Source: an uncultured Verrucomicrobiae bacterium
GTDB lineage: Bacteria; Verrucomicrobiota; Verrucomicrobiia; Palsa-1439
Direction of reading: 5' to 3'
Length of the DNA stretch: 64,000 nucleotides
Assembly: GCA_963812605.1 (NCBI GenBank)
Contig: CAWEWF010000007.1
Coordinates: forward strand, 58,043 to 122,042
The notes beneath the pieces were generated by a model. That model ran no database searches and was not told where the DNA came from. It was given only the letters and a program-made list of their open reading frames with translations. This document shows, piece by piece, positions 48,188-55,581 of this stretch. Positions within the stretch are counted from its first letter, which is position 1, and each line of letters opens with the position of its first letter. The translations under genes and the position numbers were made by a program.

Positions 48188-48418
48188 GTGAGTAAGCATC
48201 AGAAAGAAACTTGGGCCAGCGCATTCAAAGCGCTCGGACTGCGCGCGATCAGCACGGGCAAGTTCATGCAGTTCGTGTTTCTGTGCGTGGTGCTCCTCGC
48301 GCTGTGGACGACGAAGTCGGAGGACAAAGTCAGGATCACCTCCGAGCTTGTTGCCGTCATGGTCGTCTATCTCCTCTACGGCGTGGCACAAAGAGCATGT
48401 GCTGAACTCGATCGATGA
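48188..48418 (+). CDS. Small hypothetical membrane protein or remnant
   Basis: 76-aa ORF with two hydrophobic stretches; 3' end overlaps the convergent PfkB gene. Confidence 0.35.
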   Translation: MSKHQKETWASAFKALGLRAISTGKFMQFVFLCVVLLALWTTKSEDKVRITSELVAVMVVYLLYGVAQRACAELDR

Positions 48419-49397
48419 GTGTGTCGGTCGTCAATTCGTACATGGGTCCACGAGCTCCAGGATATTCACAGTTAATACTGGCGAGTGCTTGACCAAAACG
48501 AATGCCACGAACAATTTTGGCTTCATTCGAGTGCATGAAATGCTGCCGCCCACCGGCACAAAGCTCATGAATAATTCCGGCGCTACACCAATCGCCACAG
48601 CCAGTGGCATCCCTGTATTTGGTCACTTGGAACGAAGATAGACTTCGCCACGGCCCCGGCAGATTGCTTGCCCTCTTTAGTCGGTATCGGAGGCCGTCGC
48701 TTCCCAGCGTTTGAATTTCGAGCCGCGGGGAGGGAGCGGCGGGATTACGCGGAGGGTTGGGAATGCGTTCTGCGGAATACTTCACAATGTCGGAAACTGC
48801 AAGGCATGCCGTGAAGAGCGCATTGTCCTTGCAGGACGAAGGTTCAAAAAAAACGACCGCCTGCTTCTCGCGCATGGCGGTAGCGAGGATCAACGAACTG
48901 GGTTCGGCGCGATCAAAATAAAAGACTTTGGCCGATGGAAGCAGGGGAGTGATTCGTTCGGCATAGTATTTCGGCATCGGTCGGTAGCGGGGAAGCCATT
49001 GGCCCGATTGGGGATACTTCCATTCAAATCGCGATCTATGATTCCCTTTGTCGTCTTGGGCAAGACGAAGGACGATGATTGGGGTGACTCCAGCGGTCTC
49101 CTTGGCAACGAACGTAGTGTTGACGCGAAATGACCTCAAATCATCAATTAGCAATTGGGCTCTTCGATCAGTGCCAAGACGCGCAACAGCGTAAGAATTC
49201 CAATCGAGATAAGCGAGTATCGCCATGACGTTGCCGCACGAGCCACCGGCGTACTTTTGATTAGCCTTGACGCGGTCCTTCCCAATGAGGAGCCAGTCCA
49301 AGGCGAAGAATCCAGCTCCTACTGAAACACGAGCCGCGTCGGTCGAGCTTGATTTGGTGCGGCGATGGATCGTTTTGCGCATAGGCCCAATTGCCAT
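48357..49397 (-). CDS. PfkB/ribokinase family kinase (gene 5 of cassette)
   Basis: GAG..ALD, AGGSCGNV..LAYL, IQTLGSDG, DATGCGD anion-hole motif. Confidence 0.85.
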   Translation of the reverse strand: MAIGPMRKTIHRRTKSSSTDAARVSVGAGFFALDWLLIGKDRVKANQKYAGGSCGNVMAILAYLDWNSYAVARLGTDRRAQLLIDDLRSFRVNTTFVAKETAGVTPIIVLRLAQDDKGNHRSRFEWKYPQSGQWLPRYRPMPKYYAERITPLLPSAKVFYFDRAEPSSLILATAMREKQAVVFFEPSSCKDNALFTACLAVSDIVKYSAERIPNPPRNPAAPSPRLEIQTLGSDGLRYRLKRASNLPGPWRSLSSFQVTKYRDATGCGDWCSAGIIHELCAGGRQHFMHSNEAKIVRGIRFGQALASINCEYPGARGPMYELTTDTLIDRVQHMLFVPRRRGDRRP

Positions 49398-49445
49398 TTT
49401 AGCATTCTCTCTGCCAATACGACAGGTAGTCGAGTTTAATTTTAA

Positions 49446-52524: not shown

Positions 52525-53627
52525 AGTTTTTTGTGGCGAATGACACGGGGAAACAGTGGGCGGAGCGTGGGTGTACGCGCCCAGAGGGGATAGATCGAAT
52601 TGTTCGGCGTATTGTGGCTCAAGATAACTGGCAAGCCGCAGCCTGCGAAGCCGTACTTAACATCTTGACCACCCTTCTTAGTATGTTCGTCTTCGATAAC
52701 TGGATCGTAGTGTTTTGAGAGCAACGAGTCCAAACTGTCACCCCGTTGGATTCGGATGCCCGGAAACAATGGGTGAACAACCAAAATTTCGAAGCCGATG
52801 TCCTTAGGACCCCAGATTTCTTTGAGCATACCCTGCAAGTGATTAACGGCTTGGTCAGTGGCGATGTAAAGGACAACCATAACTCGCAGATTGCTTACAT
52901 CTACAAGCGCCGCCATCGGGCGATCGGGATCAAGAATGTCTCGTGAGAATTCATGAAGCTTGCCGTCAAGTTCACCTGCTTGTTCGCGGCGGAGGTAGCT
53001 GGTCCCGCTTCCCGAGAAGTCATCGAGCAACACGACCGTACCGAATCTGGCGGTTTCTCTATCCGGCAATCCAGGCGAGATGTCTCCGAGGTCCTTGCGC
53101 AGCTTTTTAAGCAATTTGTCGACCCTCTCGGTCTTTACTTCATAGGTCTGCATGATCTGCTCGTGAGTGATAATGCCGTCGTTAGCGCGACGGAACACAT
53201 CGGTGCGCGCACCATCGCTTAGTCCCAAGAAAAGACACGACCGTTGATGAACCTTGAACTCGGCCGTGGCAATGAGCTTGCTCCGATGATAGGGGTTCAA
53301 ACCAGCGTCGACTGCTACGCGCCGAAGCAATTGTGGGCGAATAAAGTCCGGATAAGCAATATTGATAAAATGGTGGAACTCGGCGGTGGAGAAAAACACG
53401 AGACGTTCGCGGACAAACTTATAGGCCTCGGCCTTGTGTTGCGGATCTTTCATGTCATTCAACCACAGTGCGAGGCTCTCAATGAAGCGGAGCCCCGGCG
53501 AAAACTGTTGGTACTCATCGTACTTGTAAGCTGCCAGTGCTTGAAGCACCGGTCGCTCCCTAGCGACATCTTCTGGCTGCCAGTTCATCACGCGAGCGAG
53601 AAGAAGTTCTGCTAGTTGTTCGTTCAT
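52521..53627 (-). CDS. Phosphoribosyltransferase-like protein (gene 2)
   Basis: PRPP-loop-like VVLLDDFSGSGTS; GLSDGA; C-terminal YGF...HNTPNNS...LW...PLFPR. Confidence 0.78.
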   Translation of the reverse strand: MNEQLAELLLARVMNWQPEDVARERPVLQALAAYKYDEYQQFSPGLRFIESLALWLNDMKDPQHKAEAYKFVRERLVFFSTAEFHHFINIAYPDFIRPQLLRRVAVDAGLNPYHRSKLIATAEFKVHQRSCLFLGLSDGARTDVFRRANDGIITHEQIMQTYEVKTERVDKLLKKLRKDLGDISPGLPDRETARFGTVVLLDDFSGSGTSYLRREQAGELDGKLHEFSRDILDPDRPMAALVDVSNLRVMVVLYIATDQAVNHLQGMLKEIWGPKDIGFEILVVHPLFPGIRIQRGDSLDSLLSKHYDPVIEDEHTKKGGQDVKYGFAGCGLPVILSHNTPNNSIYPLWARTPTLRPLFPRVIRHKKL

Positions 53628-53646
53628 CAGAGTGATTTAGGGTGGG

Positions 53647-55581
53647 TTAACGGTGTTTGGACAACTCGGCTTTAGGTATACGAGGAGTCCGGAGTGAAAA
53701 ATAGCCGTCTCCCGTCCTGATCCATGAACCGTAACAAGCGAGTCCTACAGTGTTGCAAATACCCGGCGGCAAGAGATTCCAGCAGCAATCCAAGGATGTG
53801 GAAACGGTGTCCACGCTGAGAGAAAAGGGATGCGTGAGAAGATCGAAATCGTTGCCCAGTAGGGAGCCACAATCCCCCAATGTGAGCACCCGGTTCGAAA
53901 GCGGGAGGCGACTTTGCGCGAGTTCGACACACGCGAGTTTTGTCCGTTCGAGGGGGATGACGTCGATGGAATGAGTGGATTGGACTACTCGAAGCTCGGC
54001 GCGTGCATGCTTCGCGACAATCTCGCGAACGAGAGCAGACACAACACCAACACTGGCTCGCGTCGTTAATTTCAAAGTCAATTGGCAACGTTTGCGAGTT
54101 GATTTCGCCAATGACATGAGTAGCGAATGCCTTTGGATTTGCTCGAAAACAGGATTGAGCGCCGGATGGTCGGGCAAACAATCTTCCGTCCATGTCGACG
54201 ACTCAGAGAAAGGTAGAGTAGCTGCGCCGTTGTAATAGGAAACGAAGAGGCGGTCCCACAACGCCGGGGGGAATGACGCCTGCAAAATTCGGTGGATTGA
54301 ATCTCCACGGCCTGTGGCAAAATAAACCGCGATACGATTCTTGAGGAGCTTAATGAAAAATGCCCTAGTTACAGCATCAAGCGGCCCGTCCGCAATCCCG
54401 GAAGTTGCCGTCGTGCCGTCGAAATCCGCGACCAGGGCCCCAAATTGCGATTCTTGTAGTTTCGCCGAGTAGCTCAGGAACGCCTTGGTGACCCGTGAGC
54501 AGTCGATTGCATCCCCTACGGTACCGCGCACGGCCAGTTTACGACTTACTGCAGCCGCTTGGAGTTGGGACTGGCGAGATCGACGACTCTTCGAATAAGT
54601 AACCGGGCCGAGCCTGAAAATGCGCCCCCCATAGCTTGGCACGCCTGGTCGCCCCGGATCGATTCCGCGACGCGCTCCAATAAAGGCCGTGTAGCAAAAG
54701 ACTCGCAGAATAAGCTCGAGTGCGCCCGCTGGCCCAGGGGTTTCCGTTTTGAAGGTTAGAATCCGCGTTGTCGGTGGTAGAAGACGCAGGGTCTTATCAG
54801 CGAGCACAGCTGATAACGGAGTAATAAATGCGATCACTGTTGAGACGGGCCCCTGCTTGTCGATCCAGTTGTGACGACCGTGCGCAAAATTGCGATAGTC
54901 TGCAAGTAGTACTCCCCCCAGCGCCGCTTCGCTAAATTTTGACTCCAAGTCGATCGCAGCGGGTCTGGACCAATCCGCATAAATGGCAAGATAGAACTTG
55001 GATGCATCTTCTCCGACAGGCAGGCGCCACGCGTTGTCTGCAGATTTGATAATCTGACGGATTGTTTTGTGCGAGGGCAATTCGTGACCGAACGCTCGGA
55101 TGATTGTTGCAGAAGACGCTGCTAGAGAATTCGTCGCGAGAAAGCCGTCCTTTCCCGTTGGCAGTGGCAGAGTGAAAATCCTGGACCGGGGATAGCGTGC
55201 GACACTCTGTGCGATCTTCGAACGGATTGCAGCACAGACAACAAGCACAGCCTTAGCTTCACGGGCTACTGCTGCATGGAAAGCTGCGAGGACATCGCGG
55301 TTGTTTCCGCCCGCCGTAAAAAGGACGATGTGTGTATTGCGCAAATCCGAATCGCTTTGCAGAAAACTGAGCGGCGTGTGCGTGATTCCTATGCCGCCAC
55401 GCGACTCAAACATTAGGCGAGCGAGTTCTGCAGCGGTGAATGAGCCTCCGGCGCCAATTGTGATAAGTGGACTGCTATTGGCTTGGGACAGGAACTCAGC
55501 TAACGGTGAAACGTCCAAACCCTGCACCCACCTCAGGGTGTCCTGAATGTGCGAAAGCTCGATAGCGAAAGGTTTGCCCAT
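53647..55581 (-). CDS. Tandem SIS domains fused to a HAD (type IIB-like) phosphatase (gene 1)
   Basis: SIS: IGAGGSFTAA, TAGGNNRD, DGFLATNS, ESKFSE..NFAHGRH. HAD: DFDGT, ATGRG, SIDVIP..TK, GD.G..GND. Confidence 0.82.
   Translation of the reverse strand: MGKPFAIELSHIQDTLRWVQGLDVSPLAEFLSQANSSPLITIGAGGSFTAAELARLMFESRGGIGITHTPLSFLQSDSDLRNTHIVLFTAGGNNRDVLAAFHAAVAREAKAVLVVCAAIRSKIAQSVARYPRSRIFTLPLPTGKDGFLATNSLAASSATIIRAFGHELPSHKTIRQIIKSADNAWRLPVGEDASKFYLAIYADWSRPAAIDLESKFSEAALGGVLLADYRNFAHGRHNWIDKQGPVSTVIAFITPLSAVLADKTLRLLPPTTRILTFKTETPGPAGALELILRVFCYTAFIGARRGIDPGRPGVPSYGGRIFRLGPVTYSKSRRSRQSQLQAAAVSRKLAVRGTVGDAIDCSRVTKAFLSYSAKLQESQFGALVADFDGTTATSGIADGPLDAVTRAFFIKLLKNRIAVYFATGRGDSIHRILQASFPPALWDRLFVSYYNGAATLPFSESSTWTEDCLPDHPALNPVFEQIQRHSLLMSLAKSTRKRCQLTLKLTTRASVGVVSALVREIVAKHARAELRVVQSTHSIDVIPLERTKLACVELAQSRLPLSNRVLTLGDCGSLLGNDFDLLTHPFSLSVDTVSTSLDCCWNLLPPGICNTVGLACYGSWIRTGDGYFSLRTPRIPKAELSKHR

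What the first reader, a model, noticed from the sequence alone, without database searches (positions are those of the whole stretch)
48357..55581. Candidate undescribed defence/conflict system: SIS-HAD, PRTase-like, ATPase, unknown protein, PfkB kinase
Seen: five co-oriented genes with a 19-bp gap, an ATGA overlap, a GTGA overlap and a 48-bp gap. GC is visibly lower than the flanking core (one sampled line 53% vs 70%). The cassette sits at the tRNA-proximal end of a mobile element near a HEPN gene. Catalytic-looking motifs are present in HAD (DFDGT), PRTase (DDFSGSG), ATPase (GGGKTS, FDD) and PfkB (DATGCGD). There is no transporter, catabolic regulator, nuclease or methylase. Established: tRNA-linked islands concentrate anti-phage systems, several of which deplete or signal through nucleotides. 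Inference: this is not sugar catabolism but an ATPase-gated system acting on ribose-phosphate/PRPP/nucleotide pools, or using a sugar-phosphate messenger. I do not recognise this five-gene combination as a named system, but I cannot run a search to confirm that.
Basis: partly seen in the sequence, partly recalled or inferred. Interest (0 to 1): 0.9.

Follow-up and report, generated by a model that had tools for sequence, protein, structure and literature searches.

The report
Mobile PRTase-ATPase-CARF defence-like gene cassette
Five tightly packed genes beside a tRNA gene are one slightly damaged copy of a rare cassette that moves between bacteria and archaea, and it probably works as an untested immune system in which a ligand sensor and an ATPase control an enzyme that drains a nucleotide precursor.

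Summary
The five co-oriented genes exist as described. The third gene, the ATPase, carries a one-base frameshift.

**Gene identities**
- g1: double-SIS plus HAD-IIB fusion.
- g2: PRTase-CE, the "conflict effector" family of retron III-A effectors.
- g3: ORC-CDC6-like AAA+ ATPase.
- g5: PfkB kinase.

**Evidence for a mobile unit**
- The same five genes, in the same order, occur in all 31 loci fetched from many bacterial and archaeal phyla: 18 intact, 5 cut by contig ends, 8 decayed.
- No flanking gene family is shared by more than 2 loci.
- No transporter or regulator is among the five genes.
- A convincing Cas10 was found in only 3 of 21 carrier genomes, and none in this genome.

**Sister systems**
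In the same phylum, all 10 other ORC-CDC6-like ATPases are followed by a CARF6 gene. Each is preceded by, or fused to, an interchangeable effector: PRTase-CE, HD-CE, calcineurin-like or kinase. Nine of the 10 also carry a DNA methylase. Here the SIS-HAD and PfkB genes stand where the methylase would be.

**Binding**
A complex model supports g4 binding g2 (0.91; best control 0.00).

**Verdict**
This is probably an abortive-infection-type system that targets PRPP or nucleotides. It is untested and is a variant of a catalogued class. This scan has already met the cassette on other DNA.

The parts
53647..55581 (-). g1: fusion of an N-terminal double-SIS phosphosugar-binding or isomerase module with a C-terminal HAD-IIB (Cof-type) phosphatase, 644 aa
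   Evidence: A profile of 19 homologues was searched against PDB. It matched double-SIS GlcN6P deaminase / phosphosugar isomerases (8eol, 3hba, E 4e-5, profile positions 19-221) and Cof-type HAD hydrolases (3niw, E 4e-4, positions 381-466). Pfam and NCBIfam gave only weak HAD hits. The SIS loop G-x-G-G-S, the H-G-R-H motif, the HAD D-x-D-G-T motif and G-D-x-G are invariant in 19 of 19.
52521..53627 (-). g2: PRTase-CE (phosphoribosyltransferase-like 'conflict effector'), 368 aa; the probable effector
   Evidence: Pfam PF24390: 59 bits against a cut-off of 27, E 8.5e-16. PADLOC retron PRTase_III-A: E 2.3e-12. The PRPP loop D202 D203 ... S207 G208 is invariant in 23 of 23. G326-x14-P341 N342 N343 is conserved in 23, 23, 23 and 22 of 23. 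That matches the start of the retron-type motif Gx14PNNxP quoted in PMC12746101. The AF2 model has pLDDT 87.6. Foldseek gave only weak uracil-PRTase hits, best E 9e-3.
50603..52524 (-). g3: ORC-CDC6-like AAA+ ATPase, about 640 aa when intact; here broken by a one-base frameshift near 52440-52446
   Evidence: Pfam PF24389: 53.4 bits against a cut-off of 27. Walker A G20, G22, K23, S25 and Walker B D207, D208 are invariant in 22 of 22. The start ATG overlaps the g2 stop (ATGA). The first 28 residues align with the N-termini of homologues, then the frame is lost.
49446..50606 (-). g4: stand-alone CARF6-family protein made of two tandem Rossmannoid domains, 386 aa; the probable ligand sensor and partner of g2
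   Evidence: PADLOC CARF6--CARF_CARF_CARF, PDLC01910: E 1.7e-115. AF2 model: pLDDT 88.6, pTM 0.89. Foldseek top hits are tandem USP-like domains (E about 1e-6, TM 0.22-0.30). It also hit the CARF proteins Csm6 8jbb (E 8e-4, prob 1.0) and Card1 6wxw (E 1.9e-3). The pocket-type motifs G-F-D-x-R and D-I-S-A-x-P-R are invariant in 23 of 23. The complex model with g2 scored 0.91 against a best control of 0.00.
48357..49397 (-). g5: PfkB (ribokinase-family) sugar or nucleoside kinase, 346 aa
   Evidence: Pfam PF00294: E 3.7e-11. Profile against PDB: ketohexokinase and fructokinase, E down to 3.7e-12. The best NCBIfam hit is ATP-dependent ribose-1-phosphate kinase, at only 32.7 bits against a cut-off of 330. 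The G-G dipeptide and the D...G-x-G-D motif are conserved in 27 of 27 and 26-27 of 27.
47739..47812 (+). tRNA-Cys gene next to the cassette; likely integration site of the island that carries it
   Evidence: ARAGORN. A 22-nt exact copy of its 3' end lies outside any tRNA gene on another contig, at C10:12404-12425.

Best explanation
The cassette is a horizontally mobile, self-contained conflict system. It is most likely anti-phage or anti-plasmid and of the abortive-infection type.

**Proposed mechanism (inferred).**
- Core: the ORC-CDC6-like ATPase g3 acts as an NTP-driven switch, possibly sensing DNA. The tandem-Rossmannoid CARF6 protein g4 acts as a small-molecule sensor.
- Effector: the PRTase-CE g2 sits in the effector slot just upstream of the ATPase and is held by g4. 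Once released or activated it consumes PRPP, or cleaves or makes nucleotides. That starves replication.
- Accessory enzymes: SIS-HAD (g1) and PfkB (g5) stand where sister systems carry a DNA methylase. They act on ribose phosphate or nucleoside chemistry tied to the PRTase. Either they extend its reaction into an irreversible drain, or they make or remove the ligand read by g4.

**What is shown here.**
- The family assignments.
- The rigid five-gene unit in unrelated contexts.
- Independence from Cas10.
- The interchangeable effector slot in sister loci.

**What is predicted.** Binding of g4 to g2.

**What is inferred.** The defence role, the trigger, the substrates and the roles of g1 and g5.

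**This copy.** g3 is frameshifted, so this copy may be inactive.
For: 1. **One unit.**
   - All 31 loci found with g4 carry the genes in the order g1-g2-g3-g4-g5 on one strand, as far as each contig allows: 18 intact, 5 cut by contig ends, 8 decayed.
   - The hosts span Verrucomicrobiota, Planctomycetota, Chloroflexota, Nitrospira, Acidobacteriota, Bacteroidota and four archaeal lineages.
2. **Unrelated flanks.** Among 290 flanking ORFs, no family is shared by more than 2 loci.
3. **Patchy distribution.** g4 occurs in 4 of 401 genomes of its own phylum.
4. **Signs of recent arrival.** The cassette has low GC and sits next to a tRNA gene.
5. **Effector family.**
   - g2 is PF24390 and matches retron III-A PRTase models.
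   - For Retron-Eco11, the paper reports that mutating the PRPP motif abolishes defence and that activation lowers PRPP by about 50% (passages of PMC12746101).
6. **Modular class.** 14 of 401 genomes have PF24389. In all 10 that lack the g4-type match:
   - The gene after the ATPase is CARF6 (10 of 10, E 3.6e-11 to 6.8e-87).
   - The slot before it holds PRTase-CE (3), HD-CE (2) or Metallophos (2). In the other 3, a protein-kinase domain is fused to the ATPase.
   - A DNA methylase lies upstream in 9 of 10.
7. **Not CRISPR-dependent.**
   - No Cas10 was found in this genome, which is 90% complete.
   - Of 21 carrier genomes, 2 have a Cas10 match above the family cut-off and 1 more has a strong partial match. 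None of these matches was shown to lie beside the cassette.
8. **Complex model of g4 with g2.**
   - ipSAE was 0.91 in each of 3 runs; the best of 3 controls scored 0.00.
   - The mark was reached by 58 of 80 solved complexes and 2 of 110 mismatched pairs. These counts hold only roughly here because my own alignments were used.
   - The runs agree in at least 93% of contacts, and the partner's pLDDT is at least 88.
   - No solved relative of either chain was found by sequence.
9. **Enzymes look active.** Catalytic motifs of all four enzymes are invariant across homologues.
10. **Flank content.**
   - The 150 nearest of the 290 flank ORFs include type IIG and type II restriction-modification genes, mad2, SoFic, PDC candidates, integrases and transposases.
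   - This window has a HEPN gene and a methylase-helicase nearby.
11. **Precedent.** A HAD phosphatase partner completes the reaction of a 'CE' effector in the tested PUA-Cal-HAD system (passages of bioRxiv 10.64898/2026.01.15.699771).
Against: - No copy has been tested, so the defence role is inferred from context only.
- The flank census has no matched control. It also contains plain housekeeping genes: AcrB, PdxA and GDP-mannose dehydratase.
- No copy was found on viral contigs.
- PADLOC holds no model for g1, g3 or g5.
- The best structural matches of g4 are tandem USP-like domains. CARF proteins rank lower, and every TM-score is low, 0.2-0.3.
- The fold match of g2 to PRTases is weak.
- Interface residues of the complex model are only mildly enriched for conserved columns on g4: 12 of 36 against 70 of 350. 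They are not enriched on g2: 5 of 39 against 73 of 329. These are hand counts.
- Three of the five genes are ordinary-looking sugar-phosphate or ribosyl enzymes, and there is no nuclease or pore.
- The local copy has a broken ATPase.
- Some of the 8 decayed copies come from four assemblies whose names share a prefix. Their frameshifts could be sequencing errors.
Confidence: 0.55

Rival explanations
1. Self-made messenger pathway. SIS-HAD, PfkB and perhaps the PRTase itself synthesise a new phosphoribosyl or sugar-phosphate messenger after the ATPase senses an invader. CARF6 reads that messenger. The harmful output is then metabolic exhaustion, or a partner encoded elsewhere.
For: - The cassette has a CARF-family sensor without Cas10 or any other known signal synthase.
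- Three small-molecule enzymes with intact active sites always travel with the sensor.
- The putative CARF pocket residues (G44 F45 D46 R48; D143 S145 P148 R149) lie outside the predicted interface with g2, so they are free to bind a ligand.
Against: - Sister cassettes have the same ATPase-CARF6 pair and a PRTase-CE, HD-CE or Metallophos gene but no sugar enzymes. CARF6 therefore does not in general need g1 or g5 to obtain its ligand.
- PRTase-CE occupies the effector slot, not a synthase slot.
- The tested retron relative acts as an effector.
Confidence: 0.2
2. A mobile metabolic or biosynthetic operon with no immune role. It could make a nucleoside-like secondary metabolite. It could instead salvage or degrade an amino-sugar or Amadori-type compound, with a PfkB kinase plus a double-SIS deglycase as in fructoselysine catabolism (that comparison is recalled, not tested). 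The ATPase and the Rossmannoid protein would serve as regulators.
For: - g1, g2 and g5 are sugar-phosphate or ribosyl enzymes with conserved catalytic residues.
- There is no nuclease, protease or pore.
- Several flanks are housekeeping genes.
- A PRTase plus HAD pair is predicted to make a nucleoside-like compound in Ter operons (passages of PMC7824862).
Against: - No transporter, permease or transcription factor is conserved with the cassette.
- NCBIfam scores are far below all equivalog cut-offs.
- g2, g3 and g4 belong to families found together with methylases and interchangeable HD, calcineurin-like or kinase effectors.
- Presence is about 1% and patchy, and it crosses the bacteria-archaea divide.
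- Decay is frequent: 8 of 31 loci, plus this copy.
Confidence: 0.12
3. A module that serves the mobile element rather than the host. It could be an addiction or exclusion system. It could also be a counter-defence that destroys host immune nucleotide signals or changes nucleotide pools to help the element establish itself.
For: - Here the cassette sits on an island next to a tRNA gene, with a methylase-helicase nearby.
- Integrases and transposases occur in the flanks elsewhere.
- CARF-like domains can bind and cleave signalling nucleotides, as stated in passages of bioRxiv 10.64898/2026.10.19.760177.
Against: - The flanks are unrelated from locus to locus and often chromosomal.
- No copy was found on viral contigs.
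- The architecture mirrors the host-type layout of methylase plus effector plus ATPase.
Confidence: 0.08
4. An accessory module of type III CRISPR-Cas. CARF6 would sense cyclic oligoadenylates made by Cas10 and switch on the PRTase.
For: g4 matches CARF-family models and resembles the CARF domains of Csm6 and Card1.
Against: - No Cas10 match was found in this genome.
- Only 3 of 21 carrier genomes have a convincing Cas10 match.
- No cas family appears among the 25 most frequent Pfam or PADLOC families of the 150 nearest flank ORFs. Those lists are truncated at 25.
Confidence: 0.03

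Closest known systems
Modular class: [DNA methylase] + conflict effector (PRTase-CE / HD-CE / calcineurin-like / fused kinase) + ORC-CDC6-like ATPase (PF24389) + CARF6
   Same: - It has the same ATPase family, followed directly by a CARF6 gene.
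- An effector gene sits directly upstream and is translationally coupled.
- I saw this layout in 10 of 10 other PF24389 loci of the same phylum, three of them with PRTase-CE.
   Different: - Nine of the 10 sister loci carry a DNA methylase and none carries sugar enzymes.
- This cassette has no methylase. It carries a SIS-SIS-HAD fusion upstream and a PfkB kinase downstream.
- The families were apparently defined by Nicastro et al. 2023 (NAR 51:11479, PMC10681802). I could not read that paper and saw only how a citing preprint summarises it. I therefore do not know whether the five-gene version is described there.
Type III-A retron PRTase-like effectors (for example Retron-Eco11; PMC12746101, passages read)
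   Same: - It belongs to the same Pfam family (PRTase-CE) and matches the same PADLOC models.
- It has the PRPP-binding loop and the G-x14-P-N-N motif.
- The tested member needs its PRPP motif for defence and lowers PRPP on activation.
   Different: - There is no reverse transcriptase or msDNA gene in the cassette.
- Control is by an ATPase and a CARF6 protein instead.
- The C-terminal part of the retron motif (PNNxP) is not kept exactly.
- The fold match to solved PRTases is weak.
CARF sensors of type III CRISPR-Cas (Csm6, Card1/Can2)
   Same: - It has a Rossmannoid sensor fold.
- It matches HMMs of a CARF clade (CARF6).
- Foldseek matches to Csm6 and Card1 have probability 0.99-1.0.
   Different: - It is a stand-alone protein without a fused nuclease.
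- It is not linked to Cas10.
- Its ligand is unknown.
- Its best structural matches are tandem USP-like domains.
PUA-Cal-HAD (bioRxiv 10.64898/2026.01.15.699771; passages read)
   Same: A ligand sensor, a 'CE' nucleotide-targeting effector and a HAD phosphatase work as one module. There the HAD enzyme completes a two-step nucleotide drain, and the trigger is a nucleotide released from methylated host DNA.
   Different: - The sensor differs (PUA against CARF6) and so does the effector (calcineurin-CE against PRTase-CE).
- That HAD is a C1-cap type, whereas this one is a IIB type fused to SIS.
- That system has no ATPase and no PfkB.
ShosTA / PsyrTA / Ophion PRTase-containing defence systems (PMC11961720 and PMC12961424: search listings and abstract starts only; bioRxiv 10.1101/2025.09.30.679545: passages)
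   Same: They use a PRTase-domain protein as a defence component that acts on nucleotide metabolism.
   Different: Their partners differ: an antitoxin, a RecQ-like helicase, or radical SAM plus PHP. None has an ORC-like ATPase, CARF6, SIS-HAD or PfkB.

Membership tests
PRTase-CE (Pfam PF24390) | Match to the family HMM above its gathering score | tested here: met
   59 bits against a cut-off of 27, E 8.5e-16, covering profile positions 4-253 of 253.
PRTase-CE (Pfam PF24390) | PRPP-binding loop (acidic pair followed by S/T-G) | tested here: met
   D202, D203, S207 and G208 are invariant in 23 of 23 homologues.
PRTase-CE (Pfam PF24390) | Retron-type motif Gx14PNNxP, as quoted in PMC12746101 | tested here: inconclusive
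   G326-x14-P341-N342-N343 is conserved (23, 23, 23 and 22 of 23). The residue two places after N343 is not proline in this protein.
PRTase-CE (Pfam PF24390) | Type I PRTase fold | tested here: inconclusive
   The AF2 model has pLDDT 87.6. Foldseek's best hits are uracil PRTases, but only at E 9e-3 to 3e-2 and TM 0.2-0.35.
Retron (type III-A) | Reverse transcriptase and ncRNA/msDNA gene next to the PRTase | tested here: not met
   No RT family appears among the five genes or the window neighbours. The cassette is not a retron.
ORC-CDC6-like ATPase + CARF6 + effector class | PF24389 ATPase with intact Walker A and B motifs | tested here: met
   53.4 bits against a cut-off of 27. The motifs are invariant in 22 of 22. 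The local gene is frameshifted near its 5' end.
ORC-CDC6-like ATPase + CARF6 + effector class | CARF6 gene directly downstream of the ATPase | tested here: met
   g4 overlaps the g3 stop (GTGA) and matches PDLC01910 at E 1.7e-115. The same arrangement holds in 10 of 10 sister loci.
ORC-CDC6-like ATPase + CARF6 + effector class | Effector gene directly upstream of, or fused to, the ATPase | tested here: met
   The g2 stop overlaps the g3 start (ATGA). The sister loci carry PRTase-CE in 3, HD-CE in 2, Metallophos in 2 and a fused kinase in 3.
ORC-CDC6-like ATPase + CARF6 + effector class | Linked DNA methylase | tested here: not met
   None of the five genes matches a methylase family. A methylase is present in 9 of 10 sister loci. 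This is the main difference of the present version.
CARF superfamily / type III CRISPR ancillary sensors | CARF-family HMM match and Rossmannoid fold like solved CARF domains | tested here: met
   The CARF6 models match. Csm6 8jbb and 5fsh and Card1 6wxw match at probability 0.99-1.0, though with low TM and below USP-like hits.
CARF superfamily / type III CRISPR ancillary sensors | Genomic link to Cas10 (source of cyclic oligoadenylate) | tested here: not met
   No Cas10 match was found in this genome. Convincing matches were found in 3 of 21 carrier genomes.
CARF superfamily / type III CRISPR ancillary sensors | Binding of a cyclic oligonucleotide | not testable with these tools
   This needs binding assays with purified g4.
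Sugar catabolic operon (PfkB kinase + SIS enzyme) | Conserved transporter or regulator, and equivalog-level enzyme matches | tested here: not met
   No flank family is shared by more than 2 of 31 loci. The best NCBIfam scores are 32.7 bits against a cut-off of 330 (g5) and 17.9 bits against a cut-off of 137 (g1).

The most novel reading that the evidence does not exclude
The SIS-HAD and PfkB enzymes, together with the PRTase, form a CRISPR-independent CARF signalling pathway that uses a new phosphoribosyl or sugar-phosphate small molecule. In sister systems a DNA methylase provides the self-versus-invader input to the same ATPase-CARF6 core. In this version that input is metabolic: a ribose-phosphate-derived ligand is made or destroyed by the cassette itself.
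Probability: 0.2. Interest if true: 0.85.

Novelty: new variant of a known kind. Interest (0 to 1): 0.6.

Why it matters
If the cassette is an immune system, three things follow.
- CARF-type sensors would be shown to work outside CRISPR.
- A new regulated way to starve invaders of PRPP or nucleotides would be added.
- One ATPase-sensor core would be seen to accept either a DNA methylase or sugar-phosphate enzymes as its accessory arm. That gives a direct handle on what such sensors read.

The cassette is compact (about 7.2 kb), is found in cultured bacteria as well as archaea, and has clear catalytic residues to mutate. It is therefore directly testable.

Tried and rejected
**Readings rejected**
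- Type III CRISPR accessory module: Cas10 is mostly absent from carriers.
- Sugar catabolism: there is no conserved transporter or regulator, and enzyme scores are far below the family cut-offs.

**Searches that gave nothing useful**
- *Promoters and terminators (47800-56800).* The scan found 4 promoter-like sites against 4.8 expected, and 9 terminator-like sites against 9.5 expected. It gives no information.
- *PDB sequence profiles.* Nothing below E 0.1 for g2, g3 or g4.
- *Protein atlas for g4.* Only unnamed clusters came back.
- *Viral contigs with the g4 profile.* No relative was found.
- *Sequencing runs.*
  - No RNA holder is listed.
  - The one DNA holder (X1) holds a small share of the words. 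It yielded a single 151-base contig covering 52260-52410.
  - That contig does not reach the frameshift site, so the break could not be checked.
- *Interface conservation in the g4-g2 model.* Enrichment is mild on g4 (12 of 36 against 70 of 350) and absent on g2 (5 of 39 against 73 of 329). These are hand counts.
- *Flank census.*
  - Only the nearest 150 of 290 flank ORFs were scanned.
  - The tool lists only the 25 commonest families.
  - I could not count how many ORFs have a defence hit, and there is no matched control.

**Literature**
- Ten searches found no held paper that describes the five-gene combination.
- The three papers most likely to bear on it are not held:
  - Makarova et al. 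2020, CARF classification, PMC7498327.
  - Burroughs et al. 2015, under the PMC id PMC4678834 that I gave from memory.
  - Nicastro et al. 2023, PMC10681802.
- Supplements are closed.
- 'Not in print' therefore holds only for the held library.
- What I say about the content of those three papers is recalled, or taken from citing papers.

Full report
**1. What is in the sequence**

Five ORFs lie head to tail on the minus strand:

| gene | coordinates | length |
|---|---|---|
| g1 | 53647-55581 | 644 aa |
| g2 | 52521-53627 | 368 aa |
| g3 | 50603-52524 | about 640 aa if intact |
| g4 | 49446-50606 | 386 aa |
| g5 | 48357-49397 | 346 aa |

The cassette starts 545 bp from a tRNA-Cys gene.

Cassette GC is 53.4% against a genome mean of 58.3%. 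That is the lowest 1.7% of 2039 genome windows of the same size.

g3 is broken. Its ATG overlaps the g2 stop, and the first 28 residues align with the N-termini of homologues. The frame is then lost and a TGA follows. The rest of the protein continues in another frame. Public reads did not cover the site.

**2. What the genes are**

- **g1.** The N-terminal half is a double-SIS module like GlcN6P deaminases and phosphosugar isomerases (8eol, E 4e-5). The C-terminal half is a Cof-type HAD-IIB phosphatase (3niw, E 4e-4).
- **g2.** It is PRTase-CE (PF24390, 59 bits against a cut-off of 27). It also matches the PADLOC models for retron type III-A PRTase effectors.
- **g3.** It is an ORC-CDC6-like AAA+ ATPase (PF24389).
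- **g4.**
  - Its AF2 model (pLDDT 88.6) shows two tandem Rossmannoid domains.
  - The best Foldseek matches are tandem USP-like domains.
  - The CARF proteins Csm6 and Card1 follow at probability 0.99-1.0 but with low TM.
- **g5.** It is a PfkB kinase nearest to ketohexokinases and fructokinases. Its weak best NCBIfam hit is a ribose-1-phosphate kinase.

The catalytic or binding motifs of all five proteins are invariant, or nearly so, across 19-27 homologues each.

**3. It is one mobile unit**

- A search of one genome per species with g4 returned 31 loci. They come from at least seven bacterial phyla and four archaeal lineages.
- In every locus the genes present are in the order g1-g2-g3-g4-g5 on one strand:
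  - 18 loci have all five intact.
  - 5 are cut by contig ends.
  - 8 show decay.
  - Four of the decayed ones come from assemblies whose names share a prefix, so their frameshifts may be errors.
- Among 290 flanking ORFs, no family is shared by more than two loci. No sixth gene, transporter or regulator belongs to the unit.
- The g4 family has 854 representatives at E <= 0.001 among 1.84 billion cluster representatives. The top 150 are nearly all stand-alone proteins of 360-390 aa.
- In the window's own phylum, 4 of 401 genomes carry g4, counting this one.
- No viral contig carries it.

**4. Not a CRISPR accessory**

- Neither Cas10 model matches this genome, which is 90% complete.
- Among 21 carrier genomes, two have a Cas10 match above the family cut-off and one has a strong partial match. 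The remaining weak hits cover only the N-terminal part of the model.

**5. The core belongs to a modular class**

A note from earlier in this scan said that the ATPase and CARF6 families also occur with methylases and other effectors. I tested that claim here.

PF24389 occurs in 14 of 401 genomes of the phylum. Four of these are the g4 carriers, where the ATPase match lies next to g4. I fetched the other ten loci and scanned their neighbours.

| Position relative to the ATPase | Finding in the ten loci |
|---|---|
| Gene directly downstream | CARF6 in 10 of 10 (E 3.6e-11 to 6.8e-87) |
| Gene directly upstream | PRTase-CE in 3, HD-CE in 2, calcineurin-like phosphoesterase in 2, DNA methylase in 2, no family hit in 1 |
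| ATPase in the last 3 of those loci | carries an N-terminal protein-kinase domain |
| DNA methylase upstream | 9 of 10 |

The architecture is therefore [methylase] - [interchangeable effector] - ATPase - CARF6. g2 sits in the effector slot.

The present cassette differs in one respect. It has no methylase. SIS-HAD sits upstream and PfkB downstream instead. In my data the sugar enzymes were seen only with PRTase-CE, but I did not survey this widely.

**6. How it probably works**

Evidence from papers:
- For Retron-Eco11, the paper reports that the PRTase-like effector needs its PRPP motif for defence. Its activation by phage helicases lowers PRPP by about half and aborts infection. The same paper names a family motif, Gx14PNNxP (passages of PMC12746101).
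- g2 keeps the PRPP loop and G-x14-P-N-N.
- 'CE' stands for 'conflict effector'. A citing preprint says these families were predicted to target nucleotide pools. It also shows experimentally that a HAD partner completes the two-step dNTP drain of a calcineurin-CE effector, and that the trigger is a methylated nucleotide released from host DNA (passages of bioRxiv 10.64898/2026.01.15.699771).
- ORC-CDC6-type AAA+ proteins are proposed as DNA-sensing switches in other predicted immune systems (passages of bioRxiv 10.64898/2026.10.19.760177).

The complex model of g4 with g2:
- It scored 0.91 in all three runs against 0.00 for the best of three controls.
- The mark was reached by 58 of 80 solved complexes and 2 of 110 mismatched pairs. 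These counts hold only roughly here because my own alignments were used.
- The runs agree in at least 93% of contacts, and the partner's pLDDT is at least 88.
- This supports binding but does not show it.
- The interface uses g4 residues 247-291 and the N-terminal helical part of g2. It leaves the putative CARF pocket free.

My reading is as follows:
- g4 holds and gates the PRTase.
- g3 is the NTP-driven switch.
- On a trigger, g2 drains PRPP or attacks nucleotides.
- g1 and g5 either extend that reaction (for example by dephosphorylating the product and diverting ribose phosphates) or make or remove the ligand of g4.

The trigger, the substrates and the roles of g1 and g5 are inferences.

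**7. Context in this genome**

- Beyond the cassette lie an unassigned 232-aa ORF, a RiboL-PSP HEPN gene, an HTH gene and a 1516-aa methylase-helicase. The last has generic matches to defence helicases and methylases.
- The window ends at the contig end.
- A 22-nt copy of the 3' end of tRNA-Cys lies on another contig. It sits next to an integrase fragment, two transposases and a methylase fragment, so the island may continue there.

**8. Comparison and novelty**

- The parts are catalogued in Pfam and PADLOC, and the ATPase-CARF6-effector class recurs.
- In the held library, ten searches found no paper that describes the five-gene version with SIS-HAD and PfkB.
- The three most relevant papers could not be read.
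- PADLOC v2 has no model for g1, g3 or g5.
- I therefore rate this as a new variant of a known, still untested kind.
- This scan has already reported the same cassette on other DNA, in at least 8 genomes, with similar conclusions. Those are unchecked AI notes. The points I reuse were re-tested here where I say so.

**9. Verdict**

- The best explanation is a mobile PRTase-ATPase-CARF6 defence-like system (confidence 0.55).
- Interest is 0.6.

Noticed in passing
window 47791-47812 and locus L033 (G000:C10) 12404-12425: A 22-nt exact copy of the 3' end of tRNA-Cys lies on another contig, outside any tRNA gene. Next to it are a phage-integrase fragment, a RuvB-like ATPase, two rve transposases and a methylase fragment. 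Because the window ends at its contig end, this may be the far end of the same island.
   Followed up: partly
window 56736-57999: A RiboL-PSP HEPN gene (208 aa) overlaps an upstream HTH_3 gene (217 aa) on the minus strand. Neither has a PADLOC hit. They may form a small toxin-antitoxin or abortive-infection pair.
   Followed up: partly
window 58906-63456: A 1516-aa protein joins a methyltransferase domain and an SNF2/helicase C-terminal region. It has generic matches to mad2, DrmD, BrxH and DpdE models.
   Followed up: partly
window 48357-49397 (g5) and alignment A3: In 14 of 27 PfkB homologues, the two columns aligned with Y128 and S131 of this protein are cysteines (C-P-x-C-G). Many of those homologues also end in C-x-x-C. 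This looks like a zinc-ribbon-like insert. It is absent from this copy and from its closest relative, L001.
   Followed up: partly
loci L062, L064, L065 (same phylum): These ORC-CDC6-like ATPases have an N-terminal protein-kinase domain. Each is followed by a CARF6 gene and preceded by a DNA methylase. PADLOC also holds a single-protein 'CARF_STK_AAA' model.
   Followed up: partly
window 55582-56508: A 232-aa minus-strand ORF (55810-56508) directly upstream of the cassette has no Pfam or PADLOC match. It is not conserved next to the cassette in other loci.
   Followed up: partly
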